The notes beneath the pieces were generated by a model. The model was not told the origin of the DNA and ran no database searches. It saw nothing but the letters and a program-made list of their open reading frames with translations. A stretch of 64,000 bases of DNA from the NCBI GenBank assembly GCA_048213135.1, contig PS015093.1, forward strand, positions 1-64,000, written 5' to 3'. Shown here piece by piece: positions 5,201 through 38,036 of this stretch. The stretch comes from Reclinomonas americana ATCC 50394 (Eukaryota). The stretch's first letter is position 1. Each line of letters begins with the position of its first letter. Both the position numbers and the translations under genes were made by a program.

Positions 5201-8200
5201 GAGGACAGAGTGCCCGAAGAAGCACGCGAATCGTACAAGCAGCTGTTGAGGCTCATGCGTCAAATGTTTGTTCGCACTTCGCTCATCCCTGTCTTTCTCT
5301 TGTGCGTATGCTCATTGTTGCTCTCTCACTCTAATGCACAGGGTTGCCGACTTCCCGCAGTGGATCCGATTGGTGTTCACTGTCGCCGATGACCATGTGG
5401 AATTCCTGCACAGCCTATTGCGATGTGACGCGGCTTCCTCATCGTCAGTCGCTGCGCATTCATATGTGCATGCAACTTCATCAGTAAGTCACCGTTGTAC
5501 AGACTACATGTTGCTCGACATGTCGATGGCTCTGTGACCGCCGTGCATTACAGGTGACAGTCACCGCGCAGGCACTGGGTGATCCGAAAGACAAGGAGAG
5601 TCGACTGGACGCAGAGGAATTCGTCCGCCACACCGTTGACGAACACCCGCGGCTGCGCCACGCCGTCAAAAAGTGGGCACCGAAAGCCAACAACTCGCGA
5701 GACTCGTCGGCAGCCAATCAGGAGTTGCGAGTGCGTCTTGGCCAGTGCGAATTGTGCCGCGTGGCGAACCACAACTTCCGTTACCTGAGCAAGATTCTGG
5801 AGATTGTGGCCAGTTCCACGTCCGATCTGAAGCACCTGCCAAAGGAGGTATGTGTGTGACACAGCCTGTCTGCTTCGGTCAGTGCTGATCCTCTGTGTGC
5901 AGCTCGATACCATCTACGAAGAAATGTTTGTGCAGTCGTTTTCCAACGTCAGCAGCTTTGAGGACGAGAGCGAGGTGCCAGGCATTTCATGGCTTGACGT
6001 CCTGGGTGGTCTCGGTCTTGAGCCAAGCCGCATGGACCAAATGGCGGAGAAACTCAACGAGATGGAGGAGCCACCGGCGCTGTTCGCTGTCAACCAAACT
6101 CCAATTGGCCAGAGCAGAAAGATTGCCAAAGTACTCGGCATTAGAGACCCTCGCACTCCGGAGGCACGTCTTGTTGAGGAGATTGTGCAGCGGCTTTCTC
6201 GATGCGTGCCGTCGACTCCGGCGCCGTCGCCTGTGCCTCTGGTAGATTCGTCGCCGTCACCAGCACTGGATGCCAGCAGAGTTTCGTTCGTGGAAGTGCA
6301 ACCCATGTTCGAAGTGCTGCTGAGTTGCGTGAGGCACCACAGCCGCAATTATCAGCGCCACGCGCGACAGTGCTGACCGTCATTTGTTTTTATGACAGCA
6401 TCGCCAACGCCGTTGTCGGAAAAGGAACTGCTCGACGCATTGTTCATGTTGGATCCAAGAGGGCGCTGGGACGCCAGGAGCCTGAAGCGTTGCCTCTCGT
6501 ACACTGAGCGGTTTTTGATTCGCCGATCCTCTGACGATCTCGGCGTTGTGTGCTCGGTGCGCCCGCGTCACAGCCGCGCGTGTTGTCAACGCTTTCCCGC
6601 TGACCTTTGGCTTTTGTGCAGGAGTCTGTGGAGACCCTGCAGATTGTGCCTCCTCTTGCTCGTTGGCTTTCCGACCTGGACCGCAGACACGAATACTACT
6701 GTTTCTTGCATCCTCCTGAGAAAGTGTGTCAAGCATTGGTCTCTGCTCTGTGGCATCAGTTCTGCGACCGTTGGTTCAACCACTGGGAGACGAAATCGGT
6801 TCGCAGCACGCTGCTGTCATATGTCTCACTCCCGTTGTTTCTGTCTCACCTGCGTTGTGTTGTTTAATTGCAGCGAAAGCTTGTGGATGCCGCCGCCGCG
6901 TACGTGGAGCGGCTCGGTCGCTCGTACTTGCCGCGCTTTCCATTTTTGCATGACGCGAGGGTGGACCTTTTCCGCATGGCCGCATTGGACCCCCGGCAGC
7001 CGCAGGGAGCATCGTTGCCGTCTGCCTCTTCTTCAAGAAATGCCGAAGAGCCTGCTGGATACTGGAGATCCATGGTACGTTTGATGGCTTGATGACTGGC
7101 GATCAACAGCCGCACAGTCATTGAAGGGCGCTTTACTCTCATGCACAGGCACAAGTTCTGGTCGATATCTGGAAGCTGAAGATGCGGTCGCCACAACTGA
7201 ACGCGAACAGCACTGATCTTCTCTGCAGCGAATTCGAAGCAATGCTCATTCCGTTTGGAGTCTATGCGTGGTGCTGTACTCCACGTGCGTTATCTGTCTG
7301 GTCCATTTCTGTGCCTCTTGTCGCTCTACTGATCTGAGTGAGACATTGCAGCACCGGAGGGCGATGACGATCTGTGGATTGATCAAGTGGACGAATTTCT
7401 GCTGCTCATGGAACCGTTTACGGCATCTGTCAGCAACAGCATCTGCAAAGTGCTCAGTTCGTTCCTGGAGGAGTTCCCGATGGCTGCACGCTCCTTTGCT
7501 CGTTGGCGTGATTTGCCAGTCGACAGTGCGGCATTTATCACCCTGCTGCAGTACGCCGGCCACCAATTCCGTATCTGTGAAGACTACAAGCTCGGCTACA
7601 CTCCGCTGCATTGGCTTGCCTTCGATGGCCATGTGCAGATGATCGACGCGCTGATCGCGACCATACCCTCTGCGTCATTGCACGCCGTTGTTGAGGGAAT
7701 GGAGGCGCCAGCGGATCCGCGTCTTTCTTTGCTGCATGCGAAACTCGGCAATAGTGGTGACACGCCGCTGCATGTGGCGGCCACCAAGTTACGCTTCCAA
7801 CCCGTGTCCATTTCCCTGAATAGACTGCAATTACTGACTGTTTTATTGGCAGTGGTCATGTGGAAGCCGTGCGAGCACTCATTAGACACGGCGCACGTGT
7901 CCGCGAACCAAACACATCCGGCAACTTGCCAAGTGCGTGCATCTATCATCTGCACCCTGTACCTGTTCTGGTACTCATCTTTTTGCATGCACCGCACACA
8001 CAGTTCACTTGGCCGCTCGACAAGGCCACGTCGATGTGGTGATGGAGCTGCTGCGGACGGATCTCCATTTGATGACCGTGTGCAACTTGCGCGGTCACAA
8101 TGTGATCTCGGTTGCCTCGATGTGGGGTGCGTTGCAGCGTCTGTTTCTTTGTGTGCGTGCGCAACCACTTACTCACCGTGGATTTTAGGTCGCGAGTGCA

Positions 8201-9650
8201 TTATCCGCTCAGTGGACGCCTTCCTTTCGAGTGAACAAGTCGACAGGCGCGACCTGCTGGTGACAGCATTGCATGAGCGGTACGTCAGCGCTGGAGAGAT
8301 CGCATTCGCAATGCTGATATCTTACAGTTTCGCGTGTATTTGTAGTGACATGCTGTCGCGTAATGCGGCACACTTGTGCGCTGGGTGGGACACCGATGGC
8401 AATCTGCAAACGATGAACCTGTTGCTGCGGATCGATCCGAATCTGCTGTATGCTCGACGACCGCCAAACACTCCGCCGCTGAAGGGGGCCCCAGTTGGTG
8501 TCTTGGCTTCACCGGGAGCAGCTTCTCGCTCGCAGAGCCTATTCGACGCTAGTCCGGAGCTCGAGTTGCCGATTGACTGGGCGGCTGGCAGTTGCGCACT
8601 GCTTGTATCACTTATCACCTCGTCCCCTCATCTTACCCGCTGCCTCGCAACTCACAGTGGGTCAGCCGCGCATGACATTCTCCCTGCTGGAGCACATGGA
8701 GCAGCGGCCGCACGAAGACTACCCCGACGCCACCGACATCAATCGTTTGCTTGTGCTGGCCAGCTATCGGTGCGGACCTCGGCTGCACAAGGCGGTGGCC
8801 GAGCATCCGCGCTTTGGACCCGAGGCCATCTACAATGCTCGACATAGTGCGGTTGACGAGCGAACACTGTTGCATTGCGCGGCTTCGAGGAAAGGCTCCC
8901 GTGATTTGGCGCAGTGGCTGCTTCACTTGCCGCCGCCGCCTGGATCACCACCACTTGTTTGCATCCCCGACAGCAAGAACTGTACTCCGTTGCGTGCGGA
9001 CGTGCCGTTGCTGGGTGTTCACTGCGCAGCATCTCACCATGCACACACACGCGCAGAGTGCACACTGCGGCTGCTTCTGGCAACTGTGAGGTGCTCAAGG
9101 TCTTCCTCGAATCGCCACCCGACGTTATTCCGCCCGAGATCTTTCAGCAGGTCACTGGGTGGGGTTTTACTCTGCTTCACTCGGCCGCCTACGTTCGCCC
9201 CCGCCAGGTGAGCGCACACGTCCTGTCGCACACGCACGCGCTCTGCCGCGCACTCACACCGATTCACTGGCGTAGACCATCATTCGCATGCTGGTGGAGC
9301 GTTTCCCGCACATGGTGACCATGAGCGACACGCACGAGAAGCAGACGCCGCTGGAGATGGCAGAGAAGCGCGCCAAAAAGTCGAAGCAGGTCCTTTCGCC
9401 CGCCATTAAGCGACTGCTACAAGGAGATCTTGCGCCCGACACGGTGGCGATCTCGGAGCCTGAAGACCCCGACTCGGTCGTTGTTCGCATCGACTCCATC
9501 GCCTCTGTGGTCTCGGGCGACGCCACGGCGGCTACAGACAGTGACATGCAGCGGTCGGTGTCGCTCTCGTCGTCGGCAATGTGGGACTCGAAGATTTTTG
9601 GCGAGCGTCAGTCACCTCGCGGGCCTCCCCCCGCAGCGGGTGATTGCTAG
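2290..9650 (+). CDS. Multi-exon Ser/Thr protein kinase + STAND/NACHT-like P-loop NTPase + ankyrin-repeat protein
   Basis: Kinase motifs: LDGGQFG|TVFKV, WAVVKRI, HRDLK|SENV, LVDFG, YRGSQFAMAPE, SDIWSLG. NTPase motifs: FFGRRSVF, LLLRGGVGVGKT (~4670), ILVIDGL, FPQWIRLVFT. Ankyrin motifs: GYTPLHWLAFDGHVQMI, GDTPLHVAATNGHVEAVRALI, GNLPIHLAARQGHVDVV, RTLLHCAA, GFTLLHSAA. Stop TAG at 9648-9650. Confidence 0.8.
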
Positions 9651-11646: not shown

Positions 11647-13538
<1,892 letters not shown>

Positions 13539-13633: not shown

Positions 13634-16600
13634 ATGTCAACGGTGCGGGTTCCCTCTGTGCTGTGTGTGCTTTCACTGTGTGCTGACCATCGCACACGCA
13701 GTTCTCTGTCCGTGTCGTGGCCTCACACGATTCAACGCTCGTCGTGTTCGTGGAGGGCATGTCGGCTGCGTCCACTCTCGCGGACTTGCTGCGTGAGGCC
13801 ACACACTTGCTGCGGGAGAAGAGTGGAGATGAGGGAGTGGAGATTGTGGGGGTGGAGAAGCCATCAGAGTTCAAGATCGCCAAGGTTGGCGGAATGGAGC
13901 TGGACGACCTGGGCATCAAGAGCGACACTCCGTTGGTTGTGCGAGTGGCCATGTCGCCTGCTTCTGCAGCTGGCACCGTAAACGGAGTTCCAAGGTGATT
14001 CTGCGTGCGAAGCTGCTGTCTCTTGTGTGTGAGAGAGGATGCGTTTTACTCATCCAAGTGCATTCTTCATTTCCAGTGCTTCGGCATTGTCTGAGCGGTT
14101 TGTTGTCTGCCGAGGCGCTCCAGTTGATGTTGCTCACGCAACGCCTTGCACAGAATGGTGCACTCGAATCGCGTTGATGTGGCGTGGGAGGCTGTGGTCG
14201 ATGCTTTGCGTTTGCGCTGTCAATGCGCTCTGGCGCAGTTCAGTCGCGATCATGCCGACTTTGATGTGCGGGCATGGACTCCCGATGTGTGGACGCCACC
14301 GTTGTGCTTGCTTCCACTGGCGATCAAAGCGTGGTACGATCGACATGCACCGCTGCATCCCGGACGAGTCAAGTTATTTGCACCGCAGCAGCAGCACCTG
14401 CGCGACTGGAAGTGTGCCTTTGATGCTGACTCCGCTTCTGACCCTCCGTGTGACGCATTCGATGTGACGGCGTTGGTGTCGATCCTGCTGTTTGGTGGCT
14501 TTGTTGAAGATGATGGTCGCAAGCTGCGGCTAATTGACGACGCTGAAGAGCGCAAGGCTGTGGAACTGGTGCGTGAGGTACGGAATGAGTTGGCTCATGG
14601 ATCGTTGGGATGGGACGAGTCCACTGTGTACGAATATCTCGGTGACACTGGTATCTTCCTCTCCCTGTTGGTGAAGCTGCGCATTCCTGTTGATGCAGTC
14701 GCCAGATTTGCGACGCGGATTCGTGAGGCTCGCCACCTCGACTTCAGCGTCAGCACCTTCGAGGAGCGACTTTATCGACTGGCTTTCCGTGAGCTCTCGT
14801 TTTACCAGCACGACGAGAGTGTGCGCAAGGACATGCAGATGTATGTACCGCTGCTGTGCTCACGTGAGCGCGATGTCTCCGCGAGAGACAAGATGACAGA
14901 CCTGTTAGCGGAAGTGGATGCTTTCCTCTCCGACAAGAACACCATGCAGCATGTGCTGGTTTTATTCGGCAACAGCGGAGCCGGCAAGACCACCACCATG
15001 TCGGTGCTGGCTGAGCGAGCATGGGGGCAGTGGCAGGCGAGAGAGAGCAGACGAGTGCCTGTGCGTGTGCCTCTTGGTTCATTGCGCAATGCCGATGAGC
15101 GACTGTTGGAGGAAGCATTGGAGCGACTGTCACCCGAGTTGGGATTCAGTGAGGCGGATGTGCGACGATTGAAGGAGGAGCCACTTCTGTTGTTGCTTGA
15201 CGGATACGATGAGTTGTACCGTGGGGTGAATCTGTTTGTCAAGAACCAGCTGGATGTTTGTCGCGATGTGAAGGTGATAATCACTTGTCGCGGTGATTAC
15301 GCCCTGACGGCACTGGGTGGTGTTGCGCAGTATCGACGGTACTTTGCACCGGTGGATGCACGTGGACAGTTGTGCATGCAGCAGCTGATGGAGCGACACA
15401 TTGCGCCGTTCAACAAGGAGCAGATCGAAAAGTACATTGAGCGACTGGTATCACGAGTGAGCGATGACGATGGTGAGGTGCGGTGGTCAACAGCCGAGGA
15501 GTACATGCGTGCGCTGATGGGTATTCGTGGGTTGGATGTGCTGGTGTCGAACCCGTTCCTGTTGGCTGTGGTGGCTCGTGTGTTGCCGGAGTTGGTGGCG
15601 AGTGGCGTGCAGCGACCAACTCGGTGTGATGTGTTTGACCGATTCATTCGACAGTGGATTGTGAGAGAGCAGGAGAGACAGACGCGTCTTGGTGCGAAGC
15701 GTGTACCGAGTGAGGACTTGTGTATCGCATTCTGTGAGGGACTGGCACGGTTGATGCATGAGAGGAATGTGGTGCGTGTGTCTGTGATAGAGAATCGAGC
15801 AGGTGATGACGGAGAGGAAGAGGAGGAGGACGACTTTGGTGGTGCGCCACTCTCCGTGCGACGAGTGGTCGAAGGACCGTTTGACAAGTTCCTCGGGCAC
15901 AAGAACCAACATGTGCGAGTTTGCTGTCCGATTGTGCGACGGTTTGGGACGACGCAGTGGGGATTCGTGCATCTGTCGTTGCTGGAGCACTGTGTGGCAC
16001 GGCATGTGTTTGCGTGGGAGACGTGGGATGAGGAGAGGAGATTGACGATGCAAGATGTGCAGCAGCATGTGTTGGCTGTGCGCCTGCTGAATGATCGACC
16101 ATCGTTGGTAGGGCAGATGGCTGAGGTGGTGCGACGATCGTCTCGATTGCAAGCGAGACTGTGGGAGGTGATTGAGTTGTCACGAGAGGTGGATAGTCAG
16201 CGAGTGGTGACTGCAGCCGCGAATGCAGCAACAGTGTTGTGTGTGGCACAAGTGTCGTTCAGTGGACGAGATCTGTCGGGTGTGCGAGTGAGAGGTGCGG
16301 ATCTGAGAGATGCGGTGATGCACAGGACGGTGTGGAGGGGAGCGGATTTGCGAGGAGTGAATGTGTGCATGGTGAATTCGATTGCGGCAGACTTCAGAGG
16401 AGCGGATGTGACGGAGGTTAAGTGGCCGAGGAAGCCGTTGATGGGTCATGGTCGCTTGGTGAATACTGTCCGCGTCACCCCCGATGGCCAGCATGTTGTG
16501 AGTGGCAGCGGCGACGGGACTGTACGAATGTGGTCGATGGCAAGTGGTTATGAGGTGCGCCGACTGCAAGGCCACACTGGTGAGGTGAATGCAGTGGCGG

Positions 16601-17460
16601 TTACACCCGATGGTCAGTACATTGTGAGTGGCAGTGTGGACAGCACTGTACGGGTGTGGTCGGTGGCGAGAGGTGAAGAGGCGCATCGATTACAAGGGCA
16701 CTGGGGTGCGGTGAATGCAGTGGCAGTGACACCCGATGGTCAGTACATTGTGAGTGGCAGTGTGGACAGCACTGTACGGGTGTGGTCGGTGGCAAGTGGT
16801 GAAGAGGTGCGCCGACTGAAAGGCCACACGCATGGGGTGTGGGCAGTGGCAGTGACACCCGATGGCCAGTACATTGTGAGTGGCAATGGTGACAGGACTG
16901 TACGGTTGTGGTCGGTGGCGAGTGGCGAGGAAGTGCGCGGACTGGAAGGCCACACATTGTGGGTGCGTGCTGTGGCAGTGACACCCGATGGCCAGCACAT
17001 TGTGAGTGGCAGTTATGACAGTACTGTGCGGATGTGGTCAGTGGCAAGTGGCGAGGAGGTGCACCGACTGGAAGGCCACACATTGTCGGTGACTGCAGTG
17101 GCAGTGACACCCGATAGCCTGCACATTGTGAGTGGCAGTGAAGACAAGACTGTGCGAGTGTGGTCGGTGGTAAGCGGAGAACATGTGCGCCTGCTTAGAG
17201 GGCACACTAGTGGTGTGCTTTCTGTCGCTGTCACTTTGGTGAATCAGCTTACTATGAGCGACAGCGATGTGGAGGCAAGCGGAGGTTCACGACGAGACTC
17301 TCGAGTACTCCTCGTTCTCGCATCTGGCGAGCTCGTCTTCACCGTCGAGCTCAACGTCCAGAATTCTGACACGGAGGATCGCGAACTCCGCAGACACCAA
17401 GGGGGCTTGCGCGAGCGGAATTCTGAGCTGATGCCCCATTTTTCTGGGGCCTTGTATTGA
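13634..17460 (+). CDS. NLR-like protein: ubiquitin-like + HEPN-like + NACHT + pentapeptide repeats + WD40 repeats (~1209 aa; exons 13634-13642, 13702-13994, 14077-14097, 14154-17460)
   Basis: All three introns are GT-AG and phase-consistent. UBL-like: TLADLL...LDDLGIKSDTPLVVRV. HEPN-like: FDVTALVSILL...VREVRNELAH. Walker A: GNSGAGKTT (14968). Walker B: LLLLLDGYDE. Also KVIITCR, NPFLL, FVHLSLLEH, AAANAATVL, then GADLRD/GADLRG/AADFRG, then 6-7 WD40 repeats. Confidence 0.9.
16441..17235 (+). repeat. 126-nt (42-aa) coding tandem repeat, WD40 units with high internal identity
   Basis: The TPD codons start at 16477, 16603, 16729, 16855, 16981 and 17107, exactly 126 nt apart; a partial seventh unit follows. 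Confidence 0.95.
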
Positions 17461-17731
17461 TCGCTGTCTCACGACGTCCATGAGATCATCGCTTGGTTGT
17501 AATAAATTCATGATCATGCATCGGGAACAAATCGAGTGCAAGCCAGTGGCAGACCACCGACAATCTCTCTTCACCTGCAGTTGTTTTAGTTTCACACGCA
17601 CAGTCACAGTGGCGGTGCGTGCATCTCACCACGGAAACGGCAACGACGCCGCACATTTTGGTCATGATTCGTAACGGTCAATTTCCTCAACCTTGTGGCG
17701 AGCAAAGACAACAAACGAGAAATACAAAAGA

Positions 17732-20704
17732 ATGACAGCGCACCAACAACGCCAGTGGTTCGACGAGACCACCTGGTCGTCGTCATCAGAGGACGACGAC
17801 GACGACGACTTCAACCATGAGCGACCAGCACGCAACAACAACAACAACAGCAGTGGCGCAATGATTCGCATGGACGTGGTGGTTCCCTCGTATCGTGTGC
17901 GCCTCGATCGCCTGCGCGACATTCTGCGCATTCGTAATGGACGCGTGGATGTGCCGTTGGACGATGAGGATCGGCGGGAGCGCGGCGGCGGAGTCGACAC
18001 CATGATGGATGTCAACTTTTACTTGGTGATTGATAATCCGCACATTCCGTTGCCGGCGGAGATCAAGAGCTGGGGGAAGTTGCAGGGTGCGTGGAGAGGG
18101 CAAGGGGAGAGGGGAGGGAGGGAAGGGGAGAGGGGAGAGAGGAGAAGAGAGAGAGAGAGAGTGACTGCACTCGCGCAGAGGCAGTTGTTGGGAGCAATCA
18201 AGAGAGTGGGTGAGAGAGGGAGTTGATCGCAGCGTTGCACGAGCCTTGCAGCACCTTAGTGCGTGTCGTGGCAAGCGAGAAAGGAGAGCAAGAGATCCTC
18301 ATCTGAATTTGAGAGTACGAGAAGGCCCTTGCGCTTTTGCCTGAGCATCAGAGAAAGACAATGGTGGTCGAGGCTGTGGCTTGACGTTGGGAGGGAGGGA
18401 GAGGGGGCTGAGAGGGAGTATCGCAGGTTGGCGCGAGAATCTCTGCGAATTGCGCTGTCCTTGTGACGGATCATCACCTCCTCGACGCTGTCTTTTGTTT
18501 TCCATCATGTCCGGTTTCCGTCTTCTCTCCTCCTCAGTGCTCATGTGGTGAGCCTAGAGGCCACAGTATGTATCTCGTGCTCTTCCTTCTCCTCTCAGGT
18601 GTCCCGTCGTAAACCGTGCGCGTTCTTGATCCCGCCTATCTCTCCACTGTAAAGCATAGACAGCTCTGTCTCTCTTTCGATCCGTCATCCGCCTTCTCTC
18701 TCCTCAGTGTCCATGTTACGACTCGCGTTATGGAGGCTACAGTGCACTCTTCGCCTTTGCAAGTTAAACTTGCATTTTGAGAGTATCTGGCTGGTCCCGT
18801 CGTCCACCCTTTTTGTGTTTCCATATCGACCATGAAGACAGCCTCATCTTGGTGGCCTTGGCTTCTCGTGTTCTTGCTCTGAGGCAGTCTGATCCGCCGT
18901 GATCTGCTATCCTTGTCGTAGCCGATCTCAGAAGTGCTTCTTCCTTTCCTTCTCACGCTCCTCGTTTATGCAGATCTGTGCTTCTCTTTCTCTCTTCTTG
19001 TTGCCATTCTCTTTGCACTCTCAGTTGCAAGAAGAGAGCACCCTCGTTCTCCTCTCTTACACATGCTTGCCCCGCTTCTTTCCACTCTTGTTGCGTCAGA
19101 TCTGTCCTCTCTCGCAGAATGGATGCATTCTTCTTCTCTCGCCATCCCTGCATGCCCAGTTTCCATTCTTTTCTCTGTGACCTTGTTGCATGAGCCACTC
19201 TGATAGGGGCCTCCGTGCTCTAGCGCGTGCGAACTTCATTCATGTTGACATGAGCACGGGTGTGTTACTGCGAGTTGATGGTCTCTCTCTCTCTCTCTCA
19301 CACTCATTCTCTGACGCCTTCTCTTGCCCACTCTTCCTACTCATCGCCCTTCTTCACCTTCGTCCCTTCCCCCTTCCCTGTCCCCTCACTTTCCCTTTCC
19401 CTTCCCCCCCCTCAGGCGGCAACCGCCTCCACATCCTCGTCAACGAGCGCAACCTCGGCGCCTCTGGCAGCCGCACCCGCGGCATGCAAGCCGGCAGCGG
19501 CGACTGGATCGTGTTCCTCGACGACGACGTGATTCCCGACGAGGACCTCCTGGAGCGCTACGCTGCCTACTTTCGCGGCGCCGAGGCCGAGATGGGCCGC
19601 CGCCCCAACAAGCCATTCCCGGGCTTTGTCGGCCTCGCCGCCTTCCCCACCCCCAAGACGTCGCTCACGCGCGGCTTTGTGGCCAGCGACATTTCCGCTT
19701 GCTGGGCCTGGTCACTGAAGGGCCCGTACTGCCCGTGGGGCGTGACGGCCAACATTGCGGTGCGCCGCGCCGTCGTCGAGGGCACCTGCTTCCCCAAGGA
19801 CGATCCGCGCCACGGCAACGTGCTGGAATTCTCCCCGCTCTTCCCCAACACTGGTGGGTGATGAATGAGGAGAAAGTAGCGATGATTATGCCGGCGCTGA
19901 CGATCTTCTTTTTTCGTGATGCAGGTGGTGGCGAGGATGTCGAATTCTGCCTGCAGCTGGTGCAGCGCTGCGATGGTCGCCGCTTCCGCTCGGCGCCCGA
20001 GGCTCGCATCAGTCACCCATACTGGGGTGCCACTTCGTGTGACGATGGCAATGCCGCCGTCAACGGTGCCGCCTGTCGCCGCGAGTGCTATCGCCACTTT
20101 TTCGGCTGGGCCTTTGGCGACGGCTGCCTCAACATTGCGCACCCGCACCTCACCTTCCGCGTGCTGCCGTCGGCGGTCGAGCTCATCTCGTTCCTCGTGG
20201 CCGCCTTTGCCTTGAGCTTTGTGTTTGGTGGTGGTGCGTTACTTCGCCAAGAGTTTTCCGTGCAAGAAAAGTTGACCAACACAATGTTGTGTGCCACACA
20301 GGCCTGGCCTTCTCCGTCGCCTCCCTCCTGCTGTCGGCCGCGGGCATCCTGTTTGCCGACTTTTGCTGGGAAGCGTCACGCGTGGCCGTGCAGAAGAACA
20401 TCTGGAATCCGAAAGTGTGGGCCGAGAGCTACATTTGCCGCTTCCTCACCGACTTTGGCCGCATGTACGCGCTGATTTGGTGAGTGGTTGCGAGGGAGAA
20501 GAGGAGAGGTGTGTGGAAAAAGGAGGCTCACTCCACGTGTGGCACAACAGGCGCAGCCACTGGAAGTACATTTGCACGCGTTTCGACTTTTTGCTGGATC
20601 GCAAGGCCGTGGCCGCGCAAAAGGAGCGCGAGGCGAAGAAATTCCTGTCGTTTGCGACAATGACCGCCATCTCTACGGCCGCCATGTACTCTCTGCTGGC
20701 CTGA
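17732..20704 (+). CDS. Glycosyltransferase family 2 membrane protein (5 exons, long intron 18087-19415)
   Basis: MDVVVPSYR, FYLVIDNP, NLGASGSRTRG, WIVFLDDDVIP (DxD), WGVTANIAVRR, GGGEDVEFC, and C-terminal hydrophobic helices. Confidence 0.85.
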
Positions 20705-29552: not shown

Positions 29553-34950
<5,398 letters not shown>

Positions 34951-35656: not shown

Positions 35657-38036
35657 GAGGCAGAACAAGTGAGGCACGAGACTTACAAACAACACACTCC
35701 ATCGCTCACTCATTCACCTTCCTTTTTCTCCCTCCCACTTCCCCTTTTCTCCACCTTCCCCTTTCCTCCCCCTTCCCCTTTTCTCCTCCCCTTTCCCTCC
35801 CTCGCCAGGCTTCGTCGAGGCCTGCGCAACCGCCACGCGCATTGGCCAGTTCGTCACCAACATGCGGGCGCATCTCTTCAACACGGTGGATGCGATGCCG
35901 AGCAATGTCGCCGACTATCTCTGGAAGAACTATGTCTACGTGCTGCGCCAGTCCACGCTTTATGTTGCGCTCGTTGGTCGTCTCCTGGATTTGCTTGCAG
36001 TCAGTCGTGCTCATGGAGGGCGGTGTGAACAACAGGGGCCCTCAGATGCCTTCTGGTATCAAGCGGGACTGCTGTTGTCGCAGGTGCGCGGTCTGCAGCA
36101 GGGCTACGCGAGTGTGGCGGATCCGCAGAGTGTTGCGTGCCCCAGCTTCCTGATCTAGATTCGTCTTCGCTGCTCATTGTGAGTGCGTCACGTGGCAGCC
36201 GGTGCTGTCGCTCGTCGATTTCTTGTTTGTGCAAGCGGCCAGTGAGACGGAGGATATCATGTCGCACTTGAATCCGCAGCCGCTGGCGGAGCGGTTGAGC
36301 CGCATGAATGAGCACGAGCTGCGCGATTACACCGAGGTCAACGGGCATTGCACGTCGCTGATCAAGGTGCGGAGTTGGAAACAATTCTCACCTTCTCATC
36401 TCCCCTGCCCCCTCTTGCGTTGTGACTCCTTCTGCAGTGTAGTGCACTACTATTATTCATTTCTCTCTTTCTCTCTCCCTCTCTCCCTCCCCAACGCGTT
36501 GCTGTTGGCAAAGGAAGTGGCATTCATGTTCTCTGTCTTGCGCAGATCACTCCCGATGGGTCCGACCTGCTTGTGGCACACAACACATGGTATGCTCGCT
36601 CGGTTTCGCAGTCTGTGAGTTTTAACTCCTCACCAACCACTGGCAGGGTGTGGTTCACGCAAATGCTGCGTGTGTACAAAAAGTACACGCTGCAGTTCCA
36701 CTCGCTGGCCTCTGCCGGGCCCGGCTTCCGCATGTCCATGTCGTCGTATCCGGGCTCGTTGAGCTCGCTGGATGACTGGTGAGTATGGTGGAGATGCGGC
36801 TGTGGAATCACATTCTTCTCACCTTGATGCACAGGCTCATCTCCTCCAACAAGCTGGTGATTCTCGAGACCACCAACCTGGTGCGTGTGTGTGTGCATGA
36901 GAGGTTACCAACTCTATCTCTCATGCCCCTACCGCAGATCTTCAACACGTCGCTGTACACGGTGCTGCAACCGGCAGCCTCGTTCACCTGGGCGCGCTCG
37001 GTGATTGCCACTCGTCTCGCCAAGACCGGTGTCGAGTGGGCCACTCTGTTCCAGCGCGAGAACTCGGGCACGGTGTGTGTGGCGCACAGTTTTTTCTCTG
37101 GCTTGCGCGTGCGGCTGACATTTCCGTGCAGTACAACAACATGTGGCAGATTGTCGACATGAAGAAGTTCGTGCCGGGCAACACCAAGCCGGCGGCCAAC
37201 TCCGGTCTGTTGTATGTCCTCGAGCAGACACCGGTGTTTTTCCGCGGGTGCGTGTGCCTCTCGTCTGTGGCTGTGCTTGTTGTCATCAACGCACTGATGC
37301 GAGCTCGCGCTGCTGCAGTGGTGACCAGTCGGCGTTCCTGTCTTATGGTATGCGTGTGTCAGCCTGTTCTCATCTGCAATTCACATCTACCTCACTCCTC
37401 TCCATGTGCTGCAGATTCGCTGGGCTACTTCCCGAGTTACAATCGCCCGCTGAACAGGGACGTGTACCAAGTGATGGGCTACGCTTCGGAGGTGAAGATC
37501 TGGGGCGACTTTTGGACGTGGAGCGCCAATCCGCGAGCCAAGATCATTGCGCGCGATCAGGGCAAGGTGGTCGACGTGGAGAGCATGAAGCGATTGATCT
37601 GGGAGAACAACTGGCAGAATGATCCGCTCTCCGAAGGCAATGCCGTGGTGCGTGCCTCTCTTCAAGTCGCTTGTTCCGTGTCACTCAGCCATCTCACGGC
37701 TCACCTCGCTGCAGAATCAACTGTGCGCACGCAGCGACCTCGTCACCAACCCCAATGAGAAGAACTTTGATCTGGTGAAGCGGCCGCACGGTTGCATCGA
37801 CGGCAAGGTGACGTCGTTCCGAAGCGTCCACAATGGCGAGCAGGCGGAGGCTGTGTCCGGACCATCGCATCAGGTGCGCAGAGCTCTGTGGTGAACTCTG
37901 TTGCGTATCGCATCACATCTAACTCTCGACTGCCACACAGAGTCAGCAACCGTTCAGCTGGTCCGCCTCCGGGTTCGACAAGTACGTGCATGTGGGACAG
38001 CCTGATGTGTGGGCCTTTGACTGGATGATAATGTAA
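35011..38036 (+). CDS. Phospholipase B-like (PLBD, Ntn-hydrolase) precursor
   Basis: Signal peptide MHWRAVVVVVVLLLVCAVSG; GHCTSLIK, LVAHNTW, MSSYPG, LETTN, ENSGT|YNNMWQIVD, YFPSYNRP, NPRAKI, CARSDL, GCIDGK, HVGQPDVWAFDW. Confidence 0.92.

What the first reader, a model, noticed from the sequence alone, without database searches (positions are those of the whole stretch)
13634..17460. NLR-like receptor with a predicted HEPN ribonuclease effector and a ubiquitin-like header
Seen: one spliced ORF joins a beta-grasp-like N-terminus (FSVRVV...TLADLL...LDDLGIKSDTPLVVRV), a segment FDVTALVSILL...ERKAVELVREVRNELAHG with an intact R-x4-H motif (R at 14581, H at 14596), a NACHT NTPase, pentapeptide repeats and a WD40 sensor. 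Known: R-x4-6-H preceded by a D-x-x-x-L-L helix is the signature of DZIP3/Swt1-like HEPN RNases. NACHT/STAND proteins oligomerise to activate N-terminal effectors in fungal NWD proteins and bacterial antiphage NLRs. UBL headers occur in Crinkler-type conflict proteins. Inference: a ligand-triggered RNase (translation arrest or cell suicide) immune receptor in a protist. I do not know this exact five-domain architecture from a characterised protein.
Basis: partly seen in the sequence, partly recalled or inferred. Interest (0 to 1): 0.88.

Follow-up and report, generated by a model that had tools for sequence, protein, structure and literature searches.

The report
NLR-like receptor with possible RNase head
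One large gene in an intron-rich eukaryotic genome encodes an immune-receptor-like NACHT, pentapeptide and WD40 protein whose front end has no detectable relatives but probably carries an RNA-cutting HEPN domain behind a small, possibly ubiquitin-like, exon.

Summary
The sequence features sit at the stated coordinates. The 1110-codon ORF 14128-17460 (+) has Pfam-significant NACHT, pentapeptide and WD40 domains. It belongs to a NACHT-pentapeptide-WD40 family known from Mortierellomycotina fungi and Mycoavidus, at about 30% identity and E down to 2.7e-39.

The first ~235 residues are a sequence orphan: 0 hits in 1.84 billion representatives, and no Pfam, NCBIfam or PDB match. A HEPN reading rests only on weak, convergent leads:
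- RNELAH lies at the end of a predicted helix.
- The only two PADLOC hits are HEPN models placed on that motif.
- The nearest named ESM-Atlas clusters are HEPN_Swt1 and HEPN_DZIP3.
- One distant relative carries a collinear motif and a sub-threshold HEPN_DZIP3 hit.

Both structure predictions were too poor to test either fold.

The upstream exon 13702-13994 has clear coding codon usage. It can be joined in frame by GT-AG introns of 82 and 56 nt, the short size class seen in neighbouring genes. No RNA data could be obtained, so the splicing is unproven, and its ubiquitin-like fold is unproven too.

HEPN-NACHT receptors are already described in animals and HEPN-STAND proteins in bacteria. I rate this a new variant of a known kind, of moderate interest.

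The parts
13634..13642 (+). Candidate first mini-exon (ATG plus two codons). Uncertain.
   Evidence: The donor GT at 13643 (GTGCGG) scores in the top 2.6% of all GT sites in the window. An identical GTGCGG donor is used in the neighbouring phospholipase B gene. An alternative ATG lies at 13537, and an assembly gap at 13213-13372 lies just upstream.
13643..13701 (+). Candidate intron 1 (59 nt)
   Evidence: GT..CAG borders. The acceptor scores only in the top 10.5%. The length falls in the 56-73 nt class of 9 of 11 introns mapped in neighbouring genes.
13702..13994 (+). Coding exon for a ~97-residue, possibly ubiquitin-like, domain
   Evidence: Codon-usage log-likelihood is +29 bits in this frame and negative in the other five. 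Only 5.2% of 1806 other windows reach this, and the ones printed cluster in a few blocks, several of which coincide with Pfam-matched ORFs. The AF2 secondary structure runs b-b-a-b-(short helix)-b, at pLDDT 65. All four named Atlas rows listed are ubiquitin or Rad60-SLD, at 0.88-0.89. The fold is not confirmed.
13995..14076 (+). Candidate intron 2 (82 nt)
   Evidence: Donor GTGATT scores in the top 4.8% and the acceptor in the top 1.0%. The stop that closes the upstream ORF overlaps the donor.
14077..14097 (+). Candidate 21-nt micro-exon
   Evidence: It is part of the best-scoring of 8 frame-keeping splice paths. A single 159-nt intron, 13995-14153, that skips it also keeps the frame.
14098..14153 (+). 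Candidate intron 3 (56 nt)
   Evidence: Donor GTTTGT is the same hexamer as a methylmalonyl-CoA mutase intron and scores in the top 3.2%. The acceptor scores in the top 3.1%. The in-frame stop at 14125-14127 lies inside it.
14154..17460 (+). Large last exon, uninterrupted to the stop codon. ATG at 14155 is an alternative start that would leave out the upstream exon.
14305..14757 (+). HEPN-like region (about aa 60-210 of the ORF). Family unassigned and borders approximate.
   Evidence: All-helical in AF2. The borders are projected from the profile positions of the P0019 HEPN_DZIP3 hit. PADLOC HEPN hits fall on aa 137-164. Atlas gives HEPN_Swt1 0.81 and HEPN_DZIP3 0.78.
14581..14598 (+). R-N-x3-H motif (R152, N153, H157)
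   Evidence: Read from the sequence. It lies at the end of predicted helix 138-157, before a loop and helix 164-183. This is the position described for HEPN helix-3 (PMC3710099).
14953..15444 (+). NACHT NTPase domain, with Walker A GNSGAGKTT at aa 281-289 and Walker B LLLLLDGYDE at aa 353-362
   Evidence: PF05729 E 1.7e-8 to 3.3e-8, above the cut-off. Motifs read.
16240..16422 (+). Pentapeptide-repeat segment between the NACHT module and the propeller
   Evidence: PF00805, 2 stretches, above the cut-off. The same segment is conserved in relatives.
16444..17325 (+). WD40 propeller: six regular 42-residue blades plus a degenerate seventh
   Evidence: PF00400 E 2.9e-71. A 126-nt tandem repeat of 5.7 copies, 83% matches. 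Amino-acid differences between blades concentrate in a few columns.

Best explanation
This is a STAND/NLR-type intracellular receptor gene of a eukaryote.

Shown:
- A central NACHT NTPase with intact Walker A and B motifs.
- A pentapeptide-repeat spacer.
- A C-terminal WD40 propeller whose blades are near-copies that differ at a few positions.

Inferred:
- The orphan N-terminal region (about aa 60-210) is a divergent HEPN-type, metal-independent RNase domain whose active site is R152-N153-x3-H157.
- A preceding exon adds a small, possibly ubiquitin-like, domain.

Proposed mechanism, by analogy with other NLRs and with dimerisation-activated HEPN RNases:
1. A ligand binds the variable face of the propeller.
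2. The NACHT module exchanges nucleotide and oligomerises.
3. The N-terminal HEPN domains are brought together and form composite active sites.
4. They cut cellular or invader RNA, which arrests translation or kills the cell.

The role of the upstream domain (regulation, localisation or autoinhibition) is open.
For: Chassis:
- Pfam NACHT, pentapeptide and WD40 are all above their curated cut-offs.
- 47 proteins match aa 230-770. The best 20 or so share the same NACHT-pentapeptide-WD40 layout, with E 2.7e-39 to 1.9e-15 and 24-31% identity.
- The N-termini of these relatives vary: TPR, ARM_5, protein kinase. That is typical of NLR effector positions.
- WD40 blades are 67-88% identical in DNA, and non-synonymous differences are clustered in a few columns.

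HEPN:
- RN-x3-H lies at the end of a predicted helix, followed by a loop and another helix. This is where PMC3710099 places the motif, and a polar N after the R is typical.
- In PADLOC, 3 of 3 121-residue windows covering the motif gave exactly two hits, both HEPN models (CARF2--CARF_HEPN E 0.009, RTasHEPN E 0.04), aligned on aa 137-164. None of 5 control pieces of the same protein gave a HEPN-named hit.
- The two rows listed by the Atlas are HEPN_Swt1 (0.81) and HEPN_DZIP3 (0.78).
- P0019, a relative in the same NACHT family, has collinear FDITSL...RNENYAH and a HEPN_DZIP3 hit at E 0.024. The best BLASTP segment between the two N-termini is exactly this stretch.
- HEPN-NACHT and HEPN-STAND fusions are published.

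Upstream exon: coding signal, splice path, Atlas ubiquitin-type leads, and secondary-structure order.
Against: - No significant homology of the N-terminus to anything. There were 0 of 1.84 billion representatives at E<=1e-3, and none in the word-indexed search. Pfam gave none at E<=10 for either the 274-aa or the 121-aa piece. NCBIfam gave none and PDB sequences gave none.
- The PADLOC hits are short (23-28 residues) and have E-values at which spurious hits also occur (DpdH for the upstream ORF, PDC-S60 for a control piece). They vanish when the 270-residue query is used. P0019's core gave no PADLOC hit.
- Atlas scores under 0.9 are leads only. A third of shuffled proteins reach a first hit of 0.8.
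- The AF2 model of aa 1-270 has pLDDT 44, and Foldseek found nothing at E<=0.001.
- No Ex3[KR] acidic motif was seen by eye.
- The NACHT tree does not resolve P0001 with P0019; both are long branches and the fork is open.
- The AF2 model of the upstream exon (pLDDT 65) best matches uL23/eS24-type ribosomal proteins at Z 5.7 or less. That is below the tool's noise level, and no ubiquitin-like chain is in the top 50.
- There is no transcript evidence for any junction.
Confidence: 0.55

Rival explanations
1. The N-terminal ~235 residues are a lineage-specific helical adaptor or oligomerisation domain without nuclease activity. The RN-x3-H is a chance or non-catalytic feature. The protein would still be an NLR-like receptor, but one that signals through protein-protein contacts.
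For: No significant profile, sequence or structure match was found. Relatives carry non-enzymatic helical N-termini, ARM_5 and TPR. A helical effector domain is also reported for the Mortierella/Mycoavidus NLRs (PMC9815663, passages). Bare Rx4-6H is expected by chance, and a second one is present.
Against: All weak leads point to the same superfamily and the same 28 residues. The motif has the preferred N after R and the expected position at a helix end.
Confidence: 0.3
2. The upstream exon is not part of this protein. Translation starts at the ATG at 14155, and the 13702-13994 ORF belongs to a separate small gene or an untranslated leader.
For: ATG 14155 directly follows the proposed last acceptor. 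There is no RNA evidence. Acceptor 13701 and donor 13995 score only moderately. In-frame splice paths can arise by chance among several candidate sites.
Against: The exon has a strong frame-specific coding signal. It lacks its own in-frame ATG before residue 25 of the ORF. It ends 156 nt before ATG 14155 on the same strand, and its stop overlaps a usable donor. The best-scoring path restores the frame with introns of the local size class.
Confidence: 0.3
3. It is a housekeeping scaffold NTPase, in the manner of non-immune NACHT/WD40 proteins, and not a defence receptor.
For: The gene is not in a cluster of similar genes within this window, and its neighbours are ordinary metabolic and translation genes.
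Against: Relatives carry variable N-termini on one chassis. The WD40 blades are near-identical repeats that differ at a few positions, as described for fungal non-self recognition NWD genes (PMC1805685, search listing and abstract only). The N-terminus has no orthologue in 1.84 billion representatives, whereas housekeeping proteins are normally conserved.
Confidence: 0.1
4. It is an unexpressed relic of a recent transfer or retroposition.
For: The 3.3-kb exon has no intron, while neighbouring genes have 4 introns in 1.7 kb and 7 in 1.05 kb. The chassis also occurs in a bacterial endosymbiont.
Against: The frame is intact for 1110 codons and the catalytic motifs are intact. Codon usage resembles local genes, since a model trained on it together with the mutase exons also picks out other stretches of the window that coincide with Pfam-matched ORFs.
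Confidence: 0.05

Closest known systems
DZIP3/hRUL138-like HEPN-NACHT proteins of bivalves and cnidarians (PMC9646362; PMC3710099 Table 1; passages read)
   Same: An N-terminal HEPN with Rx4H and an N after the R, a central NACHT, and C-terminal repeats that can be WD40, TPR or LRR. They are presumed RNase-effector NLRs.
   Different: Here Pfam HEPN_DZIP3 does not match at all. The NACHT belongs to a different, fungal/endosymbiont-type clade with pentapeptide repeats. An extra upstream exon is added. The host is not identified, and no animal protein is among the named hits.
NACHT-pentapeptide-WD40 proteins of Mortierellomycotina fungi and Mycoavidus (hits)
   Same: The same three-part chassis over aa 230-770, including the pre-P-loop segment, at 24-31% identity.
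   Different: Their N-termini are ARM_5, TPR-containing or kinase. Ours lies outside their clade on a long branch. A motif of the R[N/D/H]-x3-5-H kind upstream of the P-loop was found by regex in 1 of 20 relatives, P0019.
Fungal NWD/HET-E type NLRs with highly similar WD40 repeats (PMC1805685, listing and abstract only; details recalled)
   Same: NACHT plus WD40 repeats that are near-copies, with variation at a few positions.
   Different: The effector is different (HET there). The repeats here are less similar to each other, at 67-88% DNA identity.
Bacterial HEPN-STAND proteins (PMC3710099, passage)
   Same: An N-terminal HEPN coupled to a STAND NTPase and C-terminal repeats or binding domains.
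   Different: They are prokaryotic and have no detectable sequence relation to this N-terminus.
RNase L / Ire1 KEN domain (HEPN activated by dimerisation; PMC3710099 section 6 read, dimerisation recalled)
   Same: The proposed working principle: HEPN RNase activity is switched on by induced proximity.
   Different: A kinase-like module, not a NACHT, drives assembly, and the KEN domain is a circularly permuted HEPN.
Sacsin and Crinkler-type proteins (ubiquitin-like N-terminus; PMC3710099 Table 1 and PMC9815663 passages; Crinkler header details recalled)
   Same: [quoted passage not shown]
   Different: No sequence match to either. The ubiquitin-like fold is unproven here.

Membership tests
NACHT NTPase (PF05729) | Profile match above the curated cut-off | tested here: met
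   34.0-34.9 bits against 26.7, aa 276-439
NACHT NTPase (PF05729) | Walker A GxxGxGK[ST] and Walker B hhhhDG[FY]DE | tested here: met
   GNSGAGKTT at aa 281-289 and LLLLLDGYDE at aa 353-362, read. The motif definitions are recalled.
Pentapeptide repeat (PF00805) | Profile match above the curated cut-off | tested here: met
   23.2-24.3 bits against 20.2, 2 stretches
WD40 propeller (PF00400) | Repeated profile matches | tested here: met
   E 2.9e-71, 6 stretches. Seven GH-initiated units by eye, the last one degenerate.
NACHT-pentapeptide-WD40 family (Mortierellomycotina/Mycoavidus type) | Full-length similarity over the NACHT to pentapeptide module | tested here: met
   E 2.7e-39, 99% of aa 230-770 covered, 31% identity to P0003, with about 20 such hits. 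It lies outside their clade in the tree.
HEPN superfamily | Rx4-6H with a polar residue (N/D/H) after the R | tested here: met
   R152-N-E-L-A-H157. Criterion from PMC3710099 section 6.
HEPN superfamily | [quoted passage not shown] | tested here: inconclusive
   The predicted helices 113-122, 138-157 and 164-183 fit, but the model has pLDDT 44. Foldseek gave no match.
HEPN superfamily | Significant profile match to any HEPN family | tested here: inconclusive
   Pfam gave none. PADLOC gave two HEPN models at E 0.009 and 0.04 only. The Atlas gave 0.78-0.81.
HEPN superfamily | Second conserved acidic residue, typically Ex3[KR] (present in many families, not all) | tested here: not met
   No Ex3[KR] was seen by eye in the candidate helix-2. 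D112 in FDVTAL is the only candidate acidic residue.
HEPN_DZIP3 (PF18738) | Profile match above the cut-off of 27 bits | tested here: not met
   No hit at E<=10 for our protein. The relative P0019 scores only 14.8 bits.
HEPN_Swt1 (PF18731) | Profile match above the cut-off | tested here: not met
   No Pfam hit. There is only an Atlas feature score of 0.81.
Ubiquitin-like beta-grasp | Profile match to a ubiquitin-clan family | tested here: not met
   0 Pfam families at E<=1. NCBIfam gave none.
Ubiquitin-like beta-grasp | beta(2)-alpha-beta(2) fold with a mixed sheet | tested here: inconclusive
   The secondary-structure order fits. Fold searches gave only sub-noise matches to other folds. The Atlas leads are to ubiquitin and Rad60-SLD at 0.88-0.89.
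HEPN RNase (function) | Metal-independent RNA cleavage that depends on the R and the H | not testable with these tools
   Needs a biochemical assay.

The most novel reading that the evidence does not exclude
A unicellular-type eukaryote carries an NLR whose effector is a previously unclassified HEPN RNase family with no detectable sequence relatives. It is headed by a ubiquitin-like domain and mounted on a NACHT-pentapeptide-WD40 chassis shared with early-diverging fungi and their bacterial endosymbionts. If so, RNase-based suicide or translation-arrest immunity by NLRs would not be confined to animals and bacteria, and effector heads would be swapped onto one chassis across kingdoms.
Probability: 0.35. 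Interest if true: 0.65.

Novelty: new variant of a known kind. Interest (0 to 1): 0.45.

Why it matters
If the head is an active HEPN RNase, this protein would link three things: bacterial HEPN-STAND defence proteins, the expanded HEPN-NACHT families of oysters and corals, and the fungal/endosymbiont NACHT-pentapeptide-WD40 family. It would also offer a compact single-gene model for testing whether NLR oligomerisation switches on an RNase. None of the animal HEPN-NACHT proteins in the passages I read had been tested biochemically. If the head is not HEPN, the gene is simply another NLR-like protein with an unknown effector.

Tried and rejected
- Whole-genome search: no genome is held for this window, so paralogue conservation of RNELAH could not be tested.
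- tblastn inside the window found no paralogue of the N-terminus, the NACHT or the upstream exon.
- RNA evidence: no RNA holder was listed.
- Searches with the N-terminus:
  - The word-indexed search with aa 1-270 found none.
  - phmmer against 1.84 billion representatives found 0.
  - The metagenome contig scan gave 134 pattern matches, none confirmed.
  - PDB sequences gave none.
  - NCBIfam gave none.
- P0019 aa 225-350 found only itself.
- A two-sequence profile (A1) against PDB sequences gave only antibody chains at E of 0.16 or more, which are spurious.
- The AF2 single-sequence model of aa 1-270 had pLDDT 44.2. Foldseek on it gave nothing at E<=0.001, and the top rows were unrelated helical proteins. 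I treat these as meaningless.
- The AF2 model of the upstream exon had pLDDT 65.3.
  - Foldseek's best E was 0.16, to S6 permutants and uL23.
  - VIA-align wide gave a best Z of 5.7 (rmsd 3.0, 67 aligned), to uL23/eS24-type chains. That is below the tool's stated noise level, and no ubiquitin-like chain was among the 50 rows.
- Homodimer prediction of aa 95-215 returned no verdict (score 0.00, own fold uncertain).
- PHROGs gave one weak hit, phrog_3846 of unknown function (E 0.07), again on the motif helix. It cannot be interpreted.
- Earlier notes of this scan held nothing for this genome or sequence.
- The NACHT tree does not resolve whether ours and P0019 are sisters. It was built with the quick method and LG+G4 on 21 rows. 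P0029 and P0048 were left out because my P-loop pattern did not find their motif.
- The first codon-usage run included one mis-framed training exon and the test region itself. It was replaced.
Full report
**What is in the sequence**

The + strand holds an ORF open from 14128 to the stop at 17458-17460, 1110 codons. R152 is encoded at 14581 and H157 at 14596. A second ORF in the same frame, 13687-13998, holds the FSVRVV...LDDLGIKSDTPLVVRV stretch. An assembly gap at 13213-13372, flanked by (GA)n and other simple repeats, lies just upstream.

**The chassis**

Pfam gives three matches, all above their curated cut-offs:
- NACHT: 34-35 bits against a cut-off of 26.7, aa 276-439.
- Pentapeptide repeats: 23-24 bits against 20.2, around aa 709-743.
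- WD40: E 2.9e-71, six stretches.

Walker A (GNSGAGKTT) and Walker B (LLLLLDGYDE) are intact.

A search with aa 230-770 found 47 proteins. About 20 of them share the same NACHT-pentapeptide-WD40 layout, at 24-31% identity and E down to 2.7e-39. Most of the named ones come from Mortierellomycotina fungi. One is from the endosymbiont Mycoavidus, and a few are from unnamed eukaryotic or metagenomic sources.

Their N-termini differ: ARM_5, a TPR-containing region, and a protein kinase. That is the pattern expected for exchangeable NLR effector heads.

In a quick maximum-likelihood tree of 21 rows, our protein lies outside the fungal/Mycoavidus clade (SH-aLRT 87). It sits on a long branch in an unresolved fork with P0019 and P0021.

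The propeller is a 126-nt tandem repeat of 5.7 copies with 83% matches. Six regular 42-residue blades are 67-88% identical in DNA. Their amino-acid differences are concentrated in a few columns: just after the GH, around the S-x-D-x turn, and at the blade end. A seventh blade is degenerate.

**The N-terminal region**

Residues 1-235 have no detectable relatives:
- 0 of 1.84 billion representatives at E<=1e-3.
- None in the word-indexed search.
- None in metagenome contigs.
- No PDB sequence match.
- No Pfam family even at E<=10, for the 274-residue or the 121-residue piece.
- No NCBIfam family.

So membership of HEPN_DZIP3 or HEPN_Swt1 was tested and not met.

What speaks for a HEPN-type domain is a set of weak leads that all point to the same place.

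1. The motif is the full R-N-x3-H form. PMC3710099 (section 6 read) says the residue after the R is typically N, D or H. [quoted passage not shown] The AF2 secondary structure has helices at 113-122, 138-157 (ending in RNELAH) and 164-183, with a non-helical stretch at 123-137. The model itself is poor, at pLDDT 44.
2. In PADLOC, each of three 121-residue windows covering the motif gave exactly two hits, both HEPN models: CARF2--CARF_HEPN at E about 0.009 and RTasHEPN at E 0.04. Both aligned on aa 137-164. Five control pieces of the same protein gave no HEPN-named hit. The P-loop piece hit defence ATPases, as expected.
3. The Atlas listed two rows for aa 1-260: HEPN_Swt1 at 0.81 and HEPN_DZIP3 at 0.78.
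4. P0019, a 1779-residue member of the same NACHT family, has FDITSL...RNENYAH in the same order ahead of its NACHT. It gets a HEPN_DZIP3 hit at E 0.024, 14.8 bits, below the cut-off of 27. The best BLASTP segment between the two N-termini is exactly FDVTAL...RNE against FDITSL...RNE, at E 0.074.

Each of these leads is individually insignificant:
- The PADLOC hits disappear with the 270-residue query.
- E-values of that size also occurred for obviously unrelated models.
- Atlas scores under 0.9 are leads only.
- P0019's core gave no PADLOC hit.
- I saw no Ex3[KR] motif.
- A bare Rx4-6H is expected by chance, and RHAPLH at aa 72 is a second instance.

I put the HEPN fold at roughly two in three and an active RNase somewhat lower.

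**The upstream exon and the gene model**

I mapped 11 GT-AG introns in the neighbouring methylmalonyl-CoA mutase and phospholipase B genes. The mapping used Pfam-delimited exon pieces and the sequence. Nine of the 11 are 56-73 nt, and the other two are 179 and 622 nt. Donors are GTGCGT, GTGCGG, GTATGC, GTTTGT and the like, and 10 of the 11 acceptors end in CAG (one ends in TAG).

- Donors 13643, 13995 and 14098: top 2.6%, 4.8% and 3.2% of all GT sites in the window.
- Acceptors 13701, 14076 and 14153: top 10.5%, 1.0% and 3.1% of all AG sites.

Among positive-scoring sites there are 8 frame-keeping ways to join the upstream frame to the main frame. A single intron, 13995-14153, also works.

A codon-usage model trained only on the NACHT-to-WD40 part and the mutase exons gives 13702-13992 +29 bits in the proposed frame. 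The other five frames are negative. Only 5.2% of 1806 other windows reach this level. The ones printed cluster in a few blocks, and several of those blocks coincide with Pfam-matched ORFs.

So the exon is very probably coding. It has no in-frame ATG before its 25th codon, and it ends 156 nt before the next ATG on the same strand. Fusion to the NLR is therefore the most economical reading. No RNA run could be listed, so the junctions, the micro-exon and the first exon remain unverified. The candidates for the first exon are ATG 13634, ATG 13537, or a site beyond the gap. ATG 14155 is a possible alternative start.

**Is the upstream exon ubiquitin-like?**

- The AF2 model has pLDDT 65 and pTM 0.50. 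Its order of elements is strand, strand, helix, strand, short helix, strand. From memory, that matches ubiquitin.
- All four named Atlas rows listed are ubiquitin or Rad60-SLD, at 0.88-0.89.
- No Pfam family matches.
- Foldseek and VIA-align placed the model nearest to uL23/eS24-type ribosomal proteins, at E of 0.16 or more and Z of 5.7 or less. Both are below the noise levels the tools state. No ubiquitin-like chain was among the 50 VIA rows.

The fold is undecided.

**How it most likely works**

Shown: domain identities for the chassis and intact NTPase motifs.

Inferred by analogy with other NLRs and with dimerisation-activated HEPN RNases:
1. A ligand binds the variable propeller face.
2. 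The NACHT module exchanges nucleotide and oligomerises.
3. The clustered N-terminal domains form an active RNase that cuts host or invader RNA.

The homodimer prediction gave no verdict.

**Comparison with what is known**

- PMC3710099 (Table 1 and passages) lists DZIP3-type HEPN fused to NACHT in animals, with expansions in Nematostella, the oyster and Capsaspora. It also lists bacterial HEPN-STAND proteins.
- PMC9646362 (passages) reports more than 50 pearl-oyster NACHT proteins with an N-terminal HEPN_DZIP3. NACHT proteins there can carry WD40, TPR or LRR repeats.
- PMC9815663 (passages) does not mention HEPN among fungal NLR effectors. [quoted passage not shown]
- In the papers found by three full-text searches, I did not find the combination with pentapeptide repeats and an upstream ubiquitin-like exon described in the listings and passages I read.

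The principle is therefore known, and the particular assembly and the orphan head are new. My verdict is a new variant of a known kind, of moderate interest, with the decisive tests being transcripts, paralogues and an RNase assay.

**Surroundings**

No similar gene lies in the window. Pfam-matched ORFs in the window, not all of them near this gene, are:
- A WD40-only ORF on the opposite strand, 11647-12909.
- Ankyrin-repeat ORFs, 7342-9211.
- A family-2 glycosyltransferase piece, 19181-19861.
- An alpha/beta hydrolase piece.
- The methylmalonyl-CoA mutase and phospholipase B genes.
- eIF3 subunit 6.

Noticed in passing
14154-17460 compared with 30713-32380 and 36367-37414: The NLR body is one intron-free 3.3-kb exon. 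The neighbouring mutase gene has 4 introns in 1.7 kb and the phospholipase B gene has 7 in 1.05 kb. This may point to retroposition or transfer of the chassis, with introns only in the added 5' part.
   Followed up: partly
11647-12909 (-): A WD40-only ORF (PF00400 E 4.9e-27) runs divergently from the NLR gene. Its 5' end runs into simple repeats and the assembly gap at 13213-13372, so its true start and the real distance between the two genes are unknown.
   Followed up: partly
12990-13520: Long (GA)n and tetranucleotide-type simple repeats flank a 160-N gap directly upstream of the gene. The promoter and first exon cannot be fully resolved in this assembly.
   Followed up: no
14251-14277 and 14452-14475: The peptide HADFDVRAW (aa 42-50) resembles DAFDVTAL (aa 109-116). 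This may be an internal duplication of the helix that precedes the HEPN-like core.
   Followed up: no
P0019 aa 80-250: The only relative with a HEPN-like motif has a ~170-residue insert, which looks strand-rich by eye, between an N-terminal helix and the FDITSL helix. This is a different elaboration of the same head.
   Followed up: no
30713-34950 (+) and 35808-37674 (+): A methylmalonyl-CoA mutase gene (with a B12-binding piece at 34180-34950) and a phospholipase B gene have very short introns of 56-73 nt. They are useful as local splice-site training data.
   Followed up: yes
17701-17911: A strong coding-type codon signal lies just downstream of the NLR stop. The ORF 17675-18226 is acidic and low in complexity and has no Pfam match. 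It is probably the next gene.
   Followed up: partly
aa 141-162 of the ORF (14548-14613): PHROGs family phrog_3846, of unknown function, gives a weak hit (E 0.07) on the same motif helix as the PADLOC HEPN models. It may be an unannotated phage HEPN family.
   Followed up: no
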